From Dehalococcoidia bacterium (GTDB lineage: Bacteria; Chloroflexota; Dehalococcoidia; Plut-88900): a DNA stretch of 64,000 nt. Position 1 is the stretch's first letter. Each line of letters begins with the position of its first letter. Of this stretch, positions 18,683 through 63,029 are shown one piece after another. The notes below the pieces were generated by a model. The model ran no database searches. It was not told the DNA's origin and saw only the letters and a program-made list of their open reading frames with translations. A program made the position numbers and the translations under genes. Location of the stretch: contig CBDFLQ010000007.1 in NCBI GenBank assembly GCA_965249275.1, positions 384,001-448,000 of the forward strand, in the 5' to 3' direction.

Positions 18683-19999
18683 TCACATCAAACGTGGCGG
18701 AACCGGTGTCTTCTCCTCTGCAAACCGACTCGGTCTGAAGGAATTGATGTCTACCGATGTCCTTCCATCGATGATCAGGTCTGCCAGCAACTTCCCAACT
18801 ATCGGCCCAACCGCAAAGCCATGTCCACTGAAGCCCGTCGCCAGGTAAAACCCCTCAATCCCCTTCACCGGCCCGATGATAGGCAGAAAGTCGGGCGTCA
18901 TGTCCACGTAACCACCCCACGTCCGAGTCAAGCGCAGTCCCTTCATTTCCGGCACCAGCTGTCCCACCAGCTTCAGTTTGCGTGCTATGTTCTCGGGTTG
19001 GGGTATCGGCTCGGTCCCGACAGGGGCAGGGTTGCTGTGCCCTGTCCCCGTCACCTTCTTGACTAGCGCTGCAAAATCCAGCTTGAGGATGTCCCGGTTC
19101 AACTTCAATGAAACGTCTCCCCGGTACTTGAGTAACCGGGGAATCCAGACCGCCAGGTCCCGCAGGTCATGCAGCGACAGGTCGTGATAGACGTCCAGCT
19201 TGCGGTAGCCGCCCGTGACCCGGAACGTCCCCGAGGCCGTCTGCCGAGACCCGTAGGTCGGACCTCTCAGGAAGCAGTCGAAGAGGCGGGGCGCGGGTTC
19301 CGTCTCCCCCTGCACGACCTTGATCAGCTGTATAGGCAGCTTAACACCCAGCCGGTCGGCGAGACGGTAGCCCCAAACACCAGCCGCGTCCAGGACCACG
19401 GGAGTAGAAATCTCTCCACGATTCGTTACCACTGAAGCGACCTTACCCGCCCTAGTGACTACCTCAGTTGCGAGGCAGCCCGTAACTATCTGCGCGCCGT
19501 ACTCGCGGGCAGATCTGGCGAAAGAATCCACCACTTTCACAGGGTTTACGTGGCCCTCGTGCGGGGACCACGCAGCCCTGATGAAGGGGCCTTGCAGAAA
19601 GGGCCACTTGGCCCGGGCCTGGGCCGCATCGTACCACTGGATTTCGACACCCGATTTCTCCGCCCCCTTGATCATCTCCTCGAACAGCGGGATGTCTTCC
19701 TCGGTGTTGGCGATAACCAGCCTGCCGCCGTTGATCAGCTCTATATCCGTGCCCAGCTCGTCGTTCAGACCGAACCAGATCTCCATGCTGGCCTGGGCGA
19801 GGGCGAACTCGTCGGGGTGGTGTTTCCCAACCAGGCCGACAGCCGCCATCGTACGGCCGGAGGCCTCGTGTGCGATATCATCCTTCTCGAGGACCGCCAC
19901 CCGCCAGCCGCGCTTGGCCAGCCGGTACGCCGTGGAGCAACCGGTGATTCCAGCGCCGACGATTACCGCGTCGGCTTCGGTCGGAAATCCACTATCCAT
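18683..19999 (-). CDS. FAD-dependent oxidoreductase, DAO family; paralog of 16840-18141
   Basis: VGAGITG, EASGRT, EGHVNP, WGGYVDMTPD and SGHGFAVGP; shares the 'DVYH.LSLHDLRDL.VW.PRL' segment. Confidence 0.9.
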   Translation of the reverse strand: MDSGFPTEADAVIVGAGITGCSTAYRLAKRGWRVAVLEKDDIAHEASGRTMAAVGLVGKHHPDEFALAQASMEIWFGLNDELGTDIELINGGRLVIANTEEDIPLFEEMIKGAEKSGVEIQWYDAAQARAKWPFLQGPFIRAAWSPHEGHVNPVKVVDSFARSAREYGAQIVTGCLATEVVTRAGKVASVVTNRGEISTPVVLDAAGVWGYRLADRLGVKLPIQLIKVVQGETEPAPRLFDCFLRGPTYGSRQTASGTFRVTGGYRKLDVYHDLSLHDLRDLAVWIPRLLKYRGDVSLKLNRDILKLDFAALVKKVTGTGHSNPAPVGTEPIPQPENIARKLKLVGQLVPEMKGLRLTRTWGGYVDMTPDFLPIIGPVKGIEGFYLATGFSGHGFAVGPIVGKLLADLIIDGRTSVDINSFRPSRFAEEKTPVPPRLM

Positions 20000-20108: not shown

Positions 20109-20299
20109 CTGTCATCCCCAGGTCCCGCGCTGCAAGCCCACCGAGGCAGGAGGAATCTCGGACTCGCCTCCTCCCGAGGGGAGCCCGTCCGCCTAAGGCG
20201 GATCATTCCGGCCGCCGAGAACCGGCTATAAGTGCGCCGAGGCGTGAATCCATCCCTGGGTAGGGCCGCTCACCCTGAGCACCGTCGAAGGGTCGAGCG
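20109..20299. repeat. Cluster of REP-like palindromic elements
   Basis: CTGTCATCCC...GGAATCT, TCCGCCTAAGGCGGA (20188-20202), TCATTCCGG...GAATCCA and CCGCTCACCCTGAGCACCGTCGAAGGG resemble common REP-type short repeats. The TCCGCCTnAGGCGGA core recurs at 39890-39904. Confidence 0.6.
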
Positions 20300-20361
20300 A
20301 GGGGAGGGGCCCACGTTGTCAGTCCGTCGTGGTCGTCCCCCCCAAAAGTGACACGAACCCC

Positions 20362-20391
20362 TTGACCAGAGTTGTACACATGTACTATATT
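20362..20391 (+). promoter_or_regulatory. Sigma70 promoter overlapped by a putative LexA (SOS) box
   Basis: TTGACC-18 nt-TATATT, with palindrome GTAC-ACAT-GTAC (20374-20385) resembling the GAAC-N4-GTTC box of Firmicutes/Chloroflexi LexA. Confidence 0.55.
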
Positions 20392-20580
20392 CACACCCGA
20401 CTAGCTCGTCACTCACCCTAAACCCAAGGAGGAACCATAACCCAGGGGGAACCACGGCCCCGGCCCCCGAGGACTCAACGTCCCAGCCCATCCCAAAGGG
20501 CGGCCCATGCCGCCCCACGGCTCAAGCGAAAGCCGCCATCTCCTCTACCAAAGGCCCCGGCTCACCTTCCCCCCGCAACC

Positions 20581-20982
20581 CAGGCGATGGAAGGCCCACA
20601 GACTATACGCGGCAGGCCCCGTCCAACGACGCCCCTGCCGATTCAACGCTTCCCATTACCGGATGCGTTTACCCCGGCCCATTGCGCGCCGGTTTTCCCG
20701 GTAGGTCAACCGACCCCCGGTTTAGCAAGGCCCTCGTGTCCTTGTTTGTCCCGCCGTCCCTGCCATCCGTCTCTACGACCGATGCACCGGGACGCCGGTT
20801 CTGAAAGTCCGCCTCAAGCGGCATGTTCCCCGTCAGCGGTCCGGTCATGTGCCGCTGCCGGTGGGATCGGCCCCACACAACCCTGACCGCGGCCGACAAC
20901 GTGTGGGGATAAGCCAGCCCGGCGCCGATGGCCCGGCAACAACCCCCGGCCTGGATTCTAGTCACGGACCTTCCATCGCCTG
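20581..20982 (-). ncRNA. Candidate large structured non-coding RNA (~402 nt), family unassigned
   Basis: Terminal helix CAGGCGAUGGAAGGUCCGUGACUA / UAGUCUGUGGGCCUUCCAUCGCCUG closes with G-U wobbles only on the minus strand. About nine internal hairpins, including GCAA and GUAA tetraloops. Overlapping ORFs look non-protein-like. Confidence 0.7.
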
Positions 20983-21147
20983 CCCCCTCCCAAACAAAAC
21001 CGAGACACCATCACCACATTTCAATAGAACCTGGGAAGCGTAGATCATCGCTCCTCATGGAAGGAGGTTCTCCAACTATCGGATATGTACGCACAATTTT
21101 GCCCATCCTTGACCCGACACCACCCCTGTGCTACAAAGGGGCCGCTT

Positions 21148-22584
21148 ATGGACAACCCATCCGTCCCCCGCCCCGACATCGACGCTATTCTCAATCCCGG
21201 CTCCATCGCCGTCGTCGGTGCGTCAACCCACCCCGCAAAGCAGGGCCACACCTACGTAAGCGCTCTCCGCGAGTTTGGCTTTCAGGGCCAGGTCTACCCC
21301 ATCAATCCGAAGGCCGAGGAGGTGGCTGGGTACACCTGCTACCCCTCCCTCAAGGACGTGCCCGGCCCCGTGGACTACGTCATCTCCGCCGTGCCCGCTC
21401 CCCTTCTTCCTCAAGTCATGAAGGATGCCCGCGGCAAGCAGGTCAAGGGAATCCACCTGTTCACTGCACGAATGGCCGAGATGGCCACCGAGGAGGGACT
21501 CGCGCTGGAAGCCGGCATCATCAGGTCAGCAAGGGAGCTCGGGGCACGGATAATCGGGCCCAACTGCATGGGTCTGTACAATCCCGGTCACGGCATCTCC
21601 TTCAGACAAAACCTTCCGAAGCAGCCCGGCCACGTGGGATTCCTCAGCCAGAGCGGCGGCAACACGGTGGAGTTCGTCTACCGCGCCTCGCTGCGTGGCG
21701 TCTTCTTCAGCAAGGCCGTGAGCTACGGCAACGCCGCCGACCTCAACGAGTGCGACCTACTGGAGTATTTCACCCACGACCCCGAGACCTCGATCATCGC
21801 CTGCTACATTGAGGGCATCAGGGGCGGGCCCCGCTTCTTTGAAGTCCTTTCGCAAGCGGCATCGGTAAAGCCCGTCGTGTTGCTGAAGGGGGGTCGAGGG
21901 AAAGCCGGGACACGGGCGGTCGCCTCTCATACCGCCTCCCTAGCCGGGTCCACACAAATATGGCGCTCTGCCGTGACCCAGGCCGGGGCAATCTGGGCCG
22001 AGACCATAGAGGAGATGACCGATATCGCAGTGGCGCTGCGCTTTATGGAGCGGCCTCGGGGCCCGAGGGTCGGGATCATCTGTGGTGGAGGTGGCAACAC
22101 CGTACACAGCGCCGACATCTGCGAAGCCGCAGGACTCACGGTCGAACCTCTGCCCGAGTCCGCGCGCTCGGGTTTCAAGGAACATCTTCCCGACACCTGG
22201 TTCCACACCAACAACCCCTTTGATTTATCGGGCATTATGTCGAGCGACGACCACGGCATGACCATGCCCCTCGCCGTGCGTCTCATGGCCGAAAGCGGGG
22301 CCTTCGACCTGATCCTCATAGACCCCGACATAGATTTCCACTTCGACCATCAACTGGCTCGGGGGCGGGTTTTCCGCCTTATGGAGATCCTCACCAAGCT
22401 GCCCAAAGAGATCAAGATCCCCGTAGCAATGATCATCCGTCCCGGTGACGCGTTGGAAGAGTGGCGCTGGCGCGCCGTCACCGAGCTTCAACAAATGGCC
22501 TGGGAAGCGGGAGTCCCGGTGTACAACTCGATGCCTCGGGCCGCCGCCTGCATCACGAAAGTATTGGCCAGTCCCGGGCACTGA
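21148..22584 (+). CDS. Acyl-CoA synthetase (NDP-forming) alpha subunit, CoA-binding
   Basis: SIAVVGAS, YPINP, IIGPNCMG, SQSGG, SYGN.ADL and phospho-His motif ASHTAS. Confidence 0.9.
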   Translation: MDNPSVPRPDIDAILNPGSIAVVGASTHPAKQGHTYVSALREFGFQGQVYPINPKAEEVAGYTCYPSLKDVPGPVDYVISAVPAPLLPQVMKDARGKQVKGIHLFTARMAEMATEEGLALEAGIIRSARELGARIIGPNCMGLYNPGHGISFRQNLPKQPGHVGFLSQSGGNTVEFVYRASLRGVFFSKAVSYGNAADLNECDLLEYFTHDPETSIIACYIEGIRGGPRFFEVLSQAASVKPVVLLKGGRGKAGTRAVASHTASLAGSTQIWRSAVTQAGAIWAETIEEMTDIAVALRFMERPRGPRVGIICGGGGNTVHSADICEAAGLTVEPLPESARSGFKEHLPDTWFHTNNPFDLSGIMSSDDHGMTMPLAVRLMAESGAFDLILIDPDIDFHFDHQLARGRVFRLMEILTKLPKEIKIPVAMIIRPGDALEEWRWRAVTELQQMAWEAGVPVYNSMPRAAACITKVLASPGH

Positions 22585-51523: not shown

Positions 51524-51790
51524 TCGTGCACCCCCCGTCGATCGAGTCCCCTCGGCCTGTTGTCCGCCGCCGAGCTCGGACCAGGCTACCCTACGGCACC
51601 CAGAATTGACCGCTTACCGTTGCTTCCTTCCGGACCTGGCGGGGTTCACAGTTTTCTGCCGCGTAGGACCCAATCTTCAGCGCCCGCCGAACGGGTACAG
51701 CGTCCAAAGGTCCAGGACCTCTAGGGGGAATTCAGTCCCGCTATAGCGGATTGCGGGTTCAGGGCACCGCTAGCTCCCCACCTAGCACGA
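51524..51790 (-). ncRNA. ffs: Large (Alu-domain-containing) bacterial SRP RNA
   Basis: 5' CGUGCUAGGUGGGGAGCUAGCGGUGCCCUGAACCCGCAAUCCGCUAUAGCGGG Alu domain, helix 8 CAGGUCCGGAAGGAAGCAACGG, and paired ends. Confidence 0.96.

Positions 51791-62953: not shown

Positions 62954-63029
<76 letters not shown>

What the first reader, a model, noticed from the sequence alone, without database searches (positions are those of the whole stretch)
20581..20982. Unassigned ~400-nt ornate structured RNA on the minus strand
Seen: the ends form a 14-bp perfect inverted repeat (CAGGCGATGGAAGG). On the minus strand this extends to about 24 bp through G-U pairs and one bulge; on the plus strand those positions are C-A mismatches, which indicates the strand. 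The interior is almost fully made of hairpins: CCCCACAC/GUGUGGGG; CAGCGG/CCGCUG; CCGCU-UGA-GGCGG; CGUCCC..CAUC.GUC-GUAGA-GAC.GAUG..GGGACG; CAAGG/CCUUG; GGUC-GGUU-GACC; CCGG..GCAA..CCGG; AACGC..GUAA..GCGUU; CGGCAGG..CGUC-GUUG-GACG..CCUGCCG. Two loops are GNRA tetraloops, and short A-rich linkers (GGGAAAA, ACAAAC, GCUAAA) join the stems. Established: large multi-junction RNAs like this are usually ribozymes or RNP scaffolds. It lacks the layout of RNase P, tmRNA and 6S, and SRP RNA is elsewhere in the window. Inference: a possibly new large ncRNA class; a non-autonomous mobile element with terminal inverted repeats is the main alternative.
Basis: partly seen in the sequence, partly recalled or inferred. 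Interest (0 to 1): 0.9.

Follow-up and report, generated by a model that had tools for sequence, protein, structure and literature searches.

The report
Hairpin-rich core of a mobile repeat
The 400-base "ornate RNA" is the inner, inverted-repeat-closed part of one worn copy of a non-coding jumping element that occurs about 50 times per genome in one genus of Dehalococcoidia bacteria, so it is a new kind of small transposon rather than a new RNA gene.

Summary
The sequence features are real. The inverted repeat lies at 20581-20597 / 20966-20982. The fold is better than shuffles on both strands, with z -4.7 and -5.15. No Rfam family matches.

The segment is not a single-copy RNA gene. This genome holds 13 copies at 86-100% identity. 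The segment is one of 9 classes of inverted-repeat-closed "bodies"; I extracted 44 such bodies. Each body sits between a G/T-rich leader and a conserved ~250-nt module that carries a sigma-70-like promoter on the opposite (plus) strand.

The whole 0.74-0.87-kb unit is the thing that moves:
- Complete units have outer 27-nt inverted ends.
- 9 of 16 complete units have perfect 5-bp target duplications.
- Three related genomes have empty sites.
- The left end docks 5 nt upstream of a -35-like hexamer.

The window's own copy has lost both outer ends.

Evidence for a selected RNA fold is weak, and the strand is not settled.

Verdict: an undescribed, unusually large, modular MITE-like family restricted to one genus. 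Interest is moderate.

The parts
20581..20982 (-). Class-A 'body': the hairpin-rich segment closed by the inner inverted repeat.
   Evidence: There are 13 copies in this genome. 29 copies from 5 genus genomes were aligned. It is one of 9 body classes.
20966..20982 (.). Inner inverted-repeat arm on the leader side. Its core GGCGATGGAAG is shared by all body classes.
   Evidence: The motif occurs 57 + 59 times in the genome against about 10 expected per orientation. It occurs 51-88 times per genome in 9 of 9 genus genomes.
20581..20597 (.). Inner inverted-repeat arm on the module side. It is also the first bases of the constant module.
20983..21029 (-). G/T-rich leader with a 'short-type' left end (TTCTATTGAAATGTGG...). 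The outer left terminal repeat is missing in this copy.
   Evidence: Alignments. No outer left end was found for locus L001.
20337..20580 (-). Constant ~250-nt module, with 51 copies in this genome. In this copy it ends at GTGTCAC (20348-20354) without the outer right terminal repeat.
20362..20391 (+). Sigma-70-like promoter TTGACC-18-TATATT. It reads into the module and body and on towards the CoA-binding gene.
   Evidence: 10 of 12 matches. GTCAA is kept through the module alignment. The same site is found in a complete unit.
20426..20434 (.). Motif TTCCTCCTT on the minus strand (AAGGAGGAA on the plus strand), with few variants among copies. No start codon follows it on the plus strand.
   Evidence: alignment.
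20534..20545 (-). Near-invariant motif GAGGAGATGGCG. It can pair with the conserved CGTTGAGTCCTC further on, through G.U pairs on the minus strand only.
   Evidence: Both partners barely vary, so covariation cannot test the pairing.
20497..20516 (-). Variable hairpin of the module. Its sequence differs between copies but the hairpin is kept.
   Evidence: alignment, read by eye.
21076..21102 (-). Neighbour, not part of the unit: a solo 27-nt end of an IS481-like element. In genome G005 that element sits intact at the same place.
   Evidence: 4 mismatches to that element's terminal repeat.

Best explanation
The segment is the internal 'body' of a decayed copy of a genus-specific family of non-coding, non-autonomous transposable elements. 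The family is MITE-like but large, 0.74-0.87 kb.

A complete unit reads, in order:
- an outer left end, TGTACTCGTTCGGTAGATTAGTGACAC;
- a short spacer and a G/T-rich leader;
- the inner repeat GGCGATGGAAG..., a variable hairpin-rich body of 300-520 nt, and the inner repeat again;
- a conserved ~250-nt module whose sigma-70-like promoter points back through the unit;
- an outer right end, ...CTCTATGTGAACGGGATCA.

Shown:
- Units insert with 5-bp target duplications.
- The left end lies 5 nt upstream of a -35-like hexamer of an outward-reading promoter.
- Units are missing at the same site in related genomes.
- Orthologous sites can hold different body classes.

Inferred:
- A DDE (rve, IS481-like) transposase supplied in trans moves the units.
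- Recombination between copies then shuffles bodies and modules and erodes the ends. This would explain why the window's class-A copy has neither outer end.
- The many hairpins are the nested palindromes usual for such elements.
- If transcribed from the unit's own promoter (plus strand of the window), the unit forms a long structured leader in front of the neighbouring gene.
For: Copy number and spread:
- 13 copies of 86-100% identity in this genome.
- Full or partial copies in 8 of 8 other genus genomes, and in 0 of 32 genomes of other genera.
- The inner-repeat 11-mer occurs 51-88 times per genome in 9 of 9 genus genomes, against 0-9 for the control.
- A scan of 185,579 species genomes found 19 of 33 pattern matches in six 'MAG: Dehalococcoidia bacterium' chromosomes. 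The other 14 were single hits in 14 unrelated records.

Architecture:
- Homology runs from about 21029 to 20337.
- There are 51 modules.
- The 44 extracted bodies fall into 9 classes of 13, 9, 8, 4, 3, 2, 2, 2 and 1.

Mobility:
- A unit present in G000, G002 and G005 is absent at the orthologous site in G003, G001 and G004.
- The outer ends pair up at 738-864 nt in most of the left-right pairs.
- Of 16 left-right pairs examined, 9 have perfect 5-nt direct repeats, 2 have 4 of 5, and 5 have 2 or fewer. Two of the perfect ones share flanks, so 8 are independent.
- TTGA lies at +6..+9 outside the left end in 12 of 23 units. A full promoter-like site lies there in 14 of 23.

Candidate transposase:
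- A 1082-bp rve element with 12 copies shares 17 of 27 end positions with the unit's left end (counted by hand) and makes 5-bp duplications.

No coding role:
- The plus-strand ORF 20587-20886 has no Pfam match.
- It is broken by 1-nt and 22-nt indels in other copies.

Class switching at orthologous sites.
Against: - The window's own copy has no outer ends and no target duplication. Only 8 of 29 class-A copies keep the left end and 1 of 29 keeps a right end, so the spread of class A itself is not explained by transposition.
- No autonomous partner with matching ends was found. The 1082-bp element differs at 10 of 27 positions and was not found in G004-G007 with this query. None of 11 IS loci examined carries the ends within 8 mismatches.
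- At 740-865 nt the units exceed the usual MITE size.
- Paired columns change less than unpaired ones (10.5% against 25.2%). Double changes exceed shuffles: 9 pairs against 4.9 +/- 1.5, and 27 cells against 9.9. Some selection on pairing is therefore possible.
- RNA-library contigs of two studies cover the body and module, so it may be transcribed.
- Gene orientation counts rest on my own rough gene finder.
Confidence: 0.78

Rival explanations
1. The unit is a vehicle for a real structured RNA. The body closed by the inner repeat (minus strand) would be a functional ncRNA, perhaps cut out at its long closing helix, that rides on a mobile element and comes in exchangeable classes.
For: - Every one of the 44 extracted units has a body of about 300 nt or more closed by the same repeat; no empty inner hairpin was seen.
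- Hairpin modules are deleted or duplicated cleanly.
- Double changes exceed shuffles, and paired columns are more conserved.
- G.U outnumbers A.C two to one in strand-neutral helices.
- A terminator-like hairpin plus T-run lies on that strand in the module of a complete unit.
- RNA-library contigs cover the body at depth 10-15, against 3-4 for the flanking genes.
Against: - The only conserved promoter reads the opposite strand. No promoter-like site was found upstream of the body on the minus strand.
- Of 19 pairs that changed between orthologous copies, 13 are broken, with G.U 5 against A.C 6.
- The GUAA loop is not kept.
- The family is limited to one genus.
- No Rfam hit.
- A TnpB-type zinc ribbon was found in only 1 of 9 genus genomes above cut-off. 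Y1 transposase was found in 0 of 12 family genomes.
- Contig depth sums many copies and gives no strand.
Confidence: 0.12
2. The unit is a domesticated cis-regulatory cassette. Its own promoter would drive a long structured plus-strand leader that controls the downstream gene, and mobility would be only its origin.
For: - The gene on the leader side points away from the unit in 40 of 51 cases.
- The left end sits 5 nt from -35-like hexamers.
- The promoter hexamers are conserved in all three module types seen.
- Neighbours include paralogues of expanded catabolic families: 9 amidohydrolase genes among 100 neighbours, against 80 of 2401 genome-wide.
- Unit positions are kept among G000, G002 and G005.
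Against: - The gene on the module side also points away in 33 of 50 cases, so much of the bias may simply be docking at promoters.
- Native promoters remain beside the unit.
- Related genomes do without the unit at the same genes.
- No expression data with strand or ends are available.
Confidence: 0.2
3. The inner repeats are recombination sites of an invertible switch (inverton) placed between a promoter and a gene.
For: A shared repeat sequence at about 45 sites upstream of genes, with a promoter beside it.
Against: - All 13 class-A copies in this genome are collinear with leader and module.
- 0 of 44 bodies matches any other in reverse orientation.
- Class switching at orthologous sites affects leader and module too.
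Confidence: 0.02

Closest known systems
Bacterial MITEs, such as Correia elements of Neisseria and MITEAba12 of Acinetobacter (recalled; the MITEAba12 paper PMC6382973 was seen only in the listing)
   Same: Non-coding, multi-copy and intergenic. They have terminal inverted repeats, short target duplications and presence/absence between relatives. They can carry promoters that read into neighbouring genes, and they fold into hairpins as RNA.
   Different: These units are 740-865 nt, against roughly 100-300 nt. They are built of modules, including a second, internal inverted repeat that closes a variable body of 9 classes. They dock 5 nt upstream of -35-like hexamers in one orientation. Most copies of the window's class have lost the outer ends.
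Modular intergenic repeats such as BOX elements of Streptococcus pneumoniae and BIMEs of E. coli (recalled)
   Same: Mosaic build from conserved and variable modules, with a variable number of hairpin sub-units. Found near genes and strongly folded.
   Different: Those are about 100-300 nt and lack a demonstrated 5-bp duplication with 27-nt ends. No Y1/RAYT transposase is present here, 0 of 12 genomes.
IS481-family insertion sequences; here the 1082-bp rve element present in 12 copies
   Same: Ends begin TGTA. Duplications are 5 bp. 17 of 27 terminal positions are shared (hand count).
   Different: The unit encodes no transposase. Its ends differ at 10 of 27 positions. That element targets a different repeat, GTCATTCCGAGGC.
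Transposon-borne structured RNAs (HEARO / omega RNA of IscB and TnpB) (recalled)
   Same: Multi-copy, strongly folded, several hundred nt, carried by mobile DNA.
   Different: No Rfam hit, HEARO included. No adjacent nuclease gene. A TnpB zinc ribbon is above cut-off in only 1 of 9 genus genomes and absent from this one.

Membership tests
MITE / non-autonomous DDE transposon | No transposase or other conserved coding frame | tested here: met
   ORFs 20587-20886 (+) and 20270-20518 (-) have no Pfam match. Indels of 1, 3 and 22 nt among copies break frames.
MITE / non-autonomous DDE transposon | Terminal inverted repeats | tested here: met
   For the family, the outer ends pair up, mostly at 738-864 nt. 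This is not met for the window's own copy.
MITE / non-autonomous DDE transposon | Target-site duplication | tested here: met
   Of 16 pairs, 9 have perfect 5-nt repeats, 2 have 4 of 5, and 5 have 2 or fewer.
MITE / non-autonomous DDE transposon | Filled and empty orthologous sites | tested here: met
   The unit is present in G000, G002 and G005 and absent in G003, G001 and G004 at one site. G001 is empty at the window's own site.
MITE / non-autonomous DDE transposon | Small size (usually under about 600 nt) | tested here: not met
   Complete units are 739-902 nt, and two are longer.
MITE / non-autonomous DDE transposon | Autonomous partner with the same ends | tested here: inconclusive
   The nearest candidate is the 1082-bp rve element, with 17 of 27 positions and the same duplication length. 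No closer match was found beside 11 IS loci.
Known RNA families (Rfam 15, including OLE, ROOL, GOLLD, raiA, HEARO, RNase P, 6S, group II intron) | Match to the family covariance model | tested here: not met
   No hit at gathering score in the window except SRP RNA and one tRNA. No hit at E<=10 in 20200-21300.
Independent structured ncRNA gene | Compensatory base-pair changes beyond what relatedness gives | tested here: inconclusive
   9 pairs with double change against 4.9 +/- 1.5 in shuffles and 4-7 in slid controls. Of 19 changed pairs between orthologues, 13 are broken.
Independent structured ncRNA gene | Discrete transcript of defined strand and ends | not testable with these tools
   Only contigs of RNA libraries were available, so no strand and no ends.
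Inverton | Both orientations of the segment between the repeats | tested here: not met
   0 of 44 bodies is reversed. All 13 class-A copies are collinear.
REPIN / RAYT system | A Y1 (RAYT) transposase gene in the genome | tested here: not met
   PF01797 was found in 0 of 12 family genomes; the control search rang in 6 of 14.

The most novel reading that the evidence does not exclude
A promoter-docking mobile element carries its own promoter and a set of exchangeable structured RNA 'cassettes' closed by a shared inverted repeat. On this reading the bodies are expressed, perhaps released at the long closing helix, and act in trans or on the neighbouring gene. The genus would then keep about 50 mobile RNA genes of 9 or more classes that swap by recombination at fixed sites.
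Probability: 0.12. Interest if true: 0.75.

Novelty: new variant of a known kind. Interest (0 to 1): 0.4.

Why it matters
The result removes a false lead for a new ribozyme-like RNA class. In its place it describes an undescribed repeat family that fills about 1% of the genomes of a genus of Dehalococcoidia; the RNA runs that share words with the stretch include sponge metatranscriptomes.

Two properties are unusual for bacterial small transposons and can be tested:
- The insertion is orientation-specific and lies exactly 5 nt upstream of -35-like hexamers.
- A variable core closed by an internal repeat changes class at fixed sites.

If the unit's promoter is active, the family rewires the upstream regions of dozens of genes, many from expanded catabolic families. 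The family also explains why intergenic regions in these genomes look heavily structured, which will mislead other ncRNA screens.

Tried and rejected
- Rfam search at two thresholds: nothing in the region.
- Phage and plasmid collections, distant mode: no match.
- Coding reading of the plus-strand ORF that starts at the ATG inside the repeat: rejected, because there is no Pfam match and frames are broken in other copies.
- Group II intron and omega-RNA ideas: no Rfam match. TnpB zinc ribbon above cut-off in 1 of 9 genus genomes. Y1 transposase in 0 of 12.
- The 27-nt repeat next to the unit at 21076-21102 first looked like the unit's own end. It is a solo end of a different IS that sits intact at the same place in G005.
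- The two tandem IS copies between two units in L083 do not carry the inner repeat.
- Search for an autonomous partner among rve elements of the genus: none with the outer ends within 8 mismatches at the 11 loci examined of the 30 fetched.
- RNA evidence: only Logan contigs were served. Parts of the stretch without cover, and contig ends at 20980 and 20580, cannot be read as transcript ends, because repeats break assemblies there.
- Module consensus folding gave weak, strand-dependent structures that I do not rely on.
- Outer-left-end 16-mer outside the genus: 4 hits in 79 genomes of other genera against 5 control hits, which is chance level. Even so, two of the three places inspected show the same 5-nt spacing to a promoter-like site. 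This is left unresolved.
- Literature: two searches listed nothing on such elements in Dehalococcoidia or sponge Chloroflexi. I saw listings and abstract starts only, and read no paper and no supplement.

Full report
**What is there.** The arms lie at 20966-20982 and 20581-20597: 17 nt, 94% complementary. The minus strand folds to -212.3 kcal/mol (z -4.70 against 100 shuffles). The plus strand folds to -182.8 kcal/mol (z -5.15). Both strands are therefore unusually foldable, and energy does not choose between them. Rfam 15 gives nothing here at gathering score or at E<=10. The window's only hits are SRP RNA at 51524-51790 and a tRNA at 62954-63026. The segment lies in a 1.15-kb gap between two divergent genes: a DAO-type oxidoreductase (18683-19999, minus) and a CoA-binding ligase-like gene (21148-22584, plus).

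**It is a repeat, and the repeat is larger than the finding.** The window's genome (2.9 Mb, 7 contigs, 87% complete) holds 13 copies of 86-100% identity. With longer queries the homology runs from about 21029 to 20337, some 690 nt. The last 250 nt (20593-20337) also occur at dozens of further places. Aligning the 13 copies with flanks shows a fixed order: a G/T-rich leader, the repeat-closed body, then a constant module. The core of the inner repeat occurs 57 and 59 times in the two orientations, against about 10 expected. Most occurrences form convergent pairs 299-517 nt apart. I extracted 44 such bodies, and they fall into 9 sequence classes of 13, 9, 8, 4, 3, 2, 2, 2 and 1. The window's is the largest class. 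A second, diverged module type with the same layout exists at two places.

**Distribution.** Copies or end-matches occur in 8 of 8 other genomes of the genus and in 0 of 32 genomes of other genera of the family and class. The 11-mer of the inner repeat is found 51-88 times in each of the 9 genus genomes, against 0-9 for the control. A scan of one genome per species (185,579 species) for the paired repeat found 33 places. Of these, 19 lie in six chromosomes titled 'MAG: Dehalococcoidia bacterium', and 14 are single hits in 14 unrelated records, which I take as chance. Phage and plasmid collections have no match.

**The whole unit is what moves.** One unit (G000 contig C7, 735399-736184) is present with a different body in G002 and G005. 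It is cleanly missing in G003, G001 and G004, where the flanks abut. Complete units carry outer ends that are imperfect inverted repeats of each other. The left end reads TGTACTCGTTCGGTAGATTAGTGACAC. The reverse complement of the right end reads TGATCCCGTTCACATAGAGGGGTGACAT. In most left-right pairs these ends lie 738-864 nt apart. Of 16 left-right pairs, 9 are flanked by perfect 5-nt direct repeats (8 independent, since two share flanks). Two more have 4 of 5, and 5 have 2 or fewer.

Reading outward from the left end, the 5 duplicated bases are followed by TTGA in 12 of 23 units. They are followed by a full promoter-like site (at least 4 of 6 in both hexamers, spacer 16-18) in 14 of 23. None of the 16 right flanks shows this, by eye. 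In the empty sites the -35 hexamer is already there. So the element docks in one orientation, 5 nt upstream of promoters that read away from it. This fits the neighbour statistics. The gene beside the leader points away from the unit in 40 of 51 cases, and the gene beside the module does so in 33 of 50. Those genes were called by my own codon-usage ORF picker.

**Who moves it.** No Y1/RAYT transposase exists in the 12 family genomes. A TnpB-type zinc ribbon is above cut-off in only 1 of 9 genus genomes. The genome has three groups of rve (IS481-like) elements. One is 1082 bp long, has 12 copies, begins TGTA, shares 17 of 27 end positions with the unit's left end (my hand count), makes 5-bp duplications, and targets a small hairpin repeat. 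It is the nearest candidate, but not a proven partner. With this query it was not found in G004-G007. None of the 11 IS loci I examined carries the unit's ends within 8 mismatches.

**The window's copy.** Its leader is of the 'short' type without the outer left end. Its module stops at GTGTCAC and runs into another repeat family (20336-20200), without the outer right end. Among 29 class-A copies from five genomes, 8 keep a left end and 1 keeps a right end.

At the window's own site the relatives differ. G002 has the same class-A unit. G003 has a unit of another class. G005 has an intact IS, of which the window keeps a solo 27-nt end at 21076-21102. G001 has a short gap with no unit. At a second site G000 has class A while G002 and G005 have another class, and there the leader and module differ too. 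I infer that copy-to-copy recombination overwrites units in place and erodes their ends. This is not shown directly.

**Is it an RNA?**
- The only conserved promoter is on the plus strand of the window: TTGACC-18-TATATT at 20362-20391. The -35 is kept in the module alignment, and the same site is found in a complete unit.
The near-invariant motifs GAGGAGATGGCG and CGTTGAGTCCTC can pair through G.U pairs. Neither can be tested by covariation.
- In helices defined without G.U, G.U variants outnumber A.C variants: 77 to 38 cells, at 33 against 20 pairs.
- On the same structure, 9 pairs show double changes against 4.9 +/- 1.5 in shuffles (5 of 500 shuffles reach 9) and 4-7 in slid controls.
- Between orthologous copies of G000 and G001 (83.6% identical), paired columns changed at 10.5% and unpaired at 25.2%. 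Yet 13 of the 19 changed pairs are broken, and G.U (5) equals A.C (6).
- RNA-library contigs from two studies cover the body and module. One example is a 505-nt contig over 20580-20980 plus 104 nt of a variant module, at depth 10-15 against 3-4 for the flanking genes. These are contigs, without strand or ends, and they sum many copies.
- No body is found in reverse orientation among the 44, which argues against an invertible switch.

**Verdict.** I file the unit as MITE-like by mechanism: ends, duplications, empty sites, no coding. I note that it fails the size criterion and that no partner transposase is proven. What is new is the modular build with an internal, class-switching core and the promoter-docking insertion. 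I found no description of it in two literature searches, for which I saw listings only.

Noticed in passing
window 20200-20336, and about 80 other places in the genome: A further short repeat family directly follows the unit's GTGTCAC end. Many partial copies of 30-140 nt are scattered through the genome.
   Followed up: no
G000 C5:168421-168938 (a body with the second module type): This body contains about eight tandem copies of a ~15-nt hairpin of the form GGGC-N6-GCCC. The same small hairpin recurs singly in several other body classes.
   Followed up: no
G000, 12 copies, for example C7:510012-511093: A 1082-bp IS481-like element inserts with the duplication ATTCC into one specific small hairpin repeat (GTCATTCCGAGGC). 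That repeat often lies just upstream of 'short-type' units.
   Followed up: partly
L124 (G019) and L125 (G022), other families of the class: A near-identical copy of the unit's outer left end (26 of 27 in L124) again lies 5 nt from a promoter-like site. In L124, GTCAA..GTGTCAC follows about 690 nt later. The overall hit count outside the genus is at chance level.
   Followed up: partly
G000 genome-wide: 80 of 2401 called genes are paralogues (25-78% identity among the 9 compared) of one Amidohydro_2 family. 9 of the 100 genes next to units belong to it. Luciferase-like monooxygenase and DAO paralogues are also among the neighbours.
   Followed up: partly
window 51524-51790 (-) and 62954-63026 (+): Large bacterial SRP RNA (188 bits) and one tRNA. 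These are the only Rfam matches in the window.
   Followed up: no
loci L032 (G005) and L020 (G001): Orthologous class-A copies of G005 and G001 are 95.9% identical. The same site in G000 is only 84-85% identical to either, which is out of step with genome relatedness and hints at exchange or conversion between lineages.
   Followed up: no
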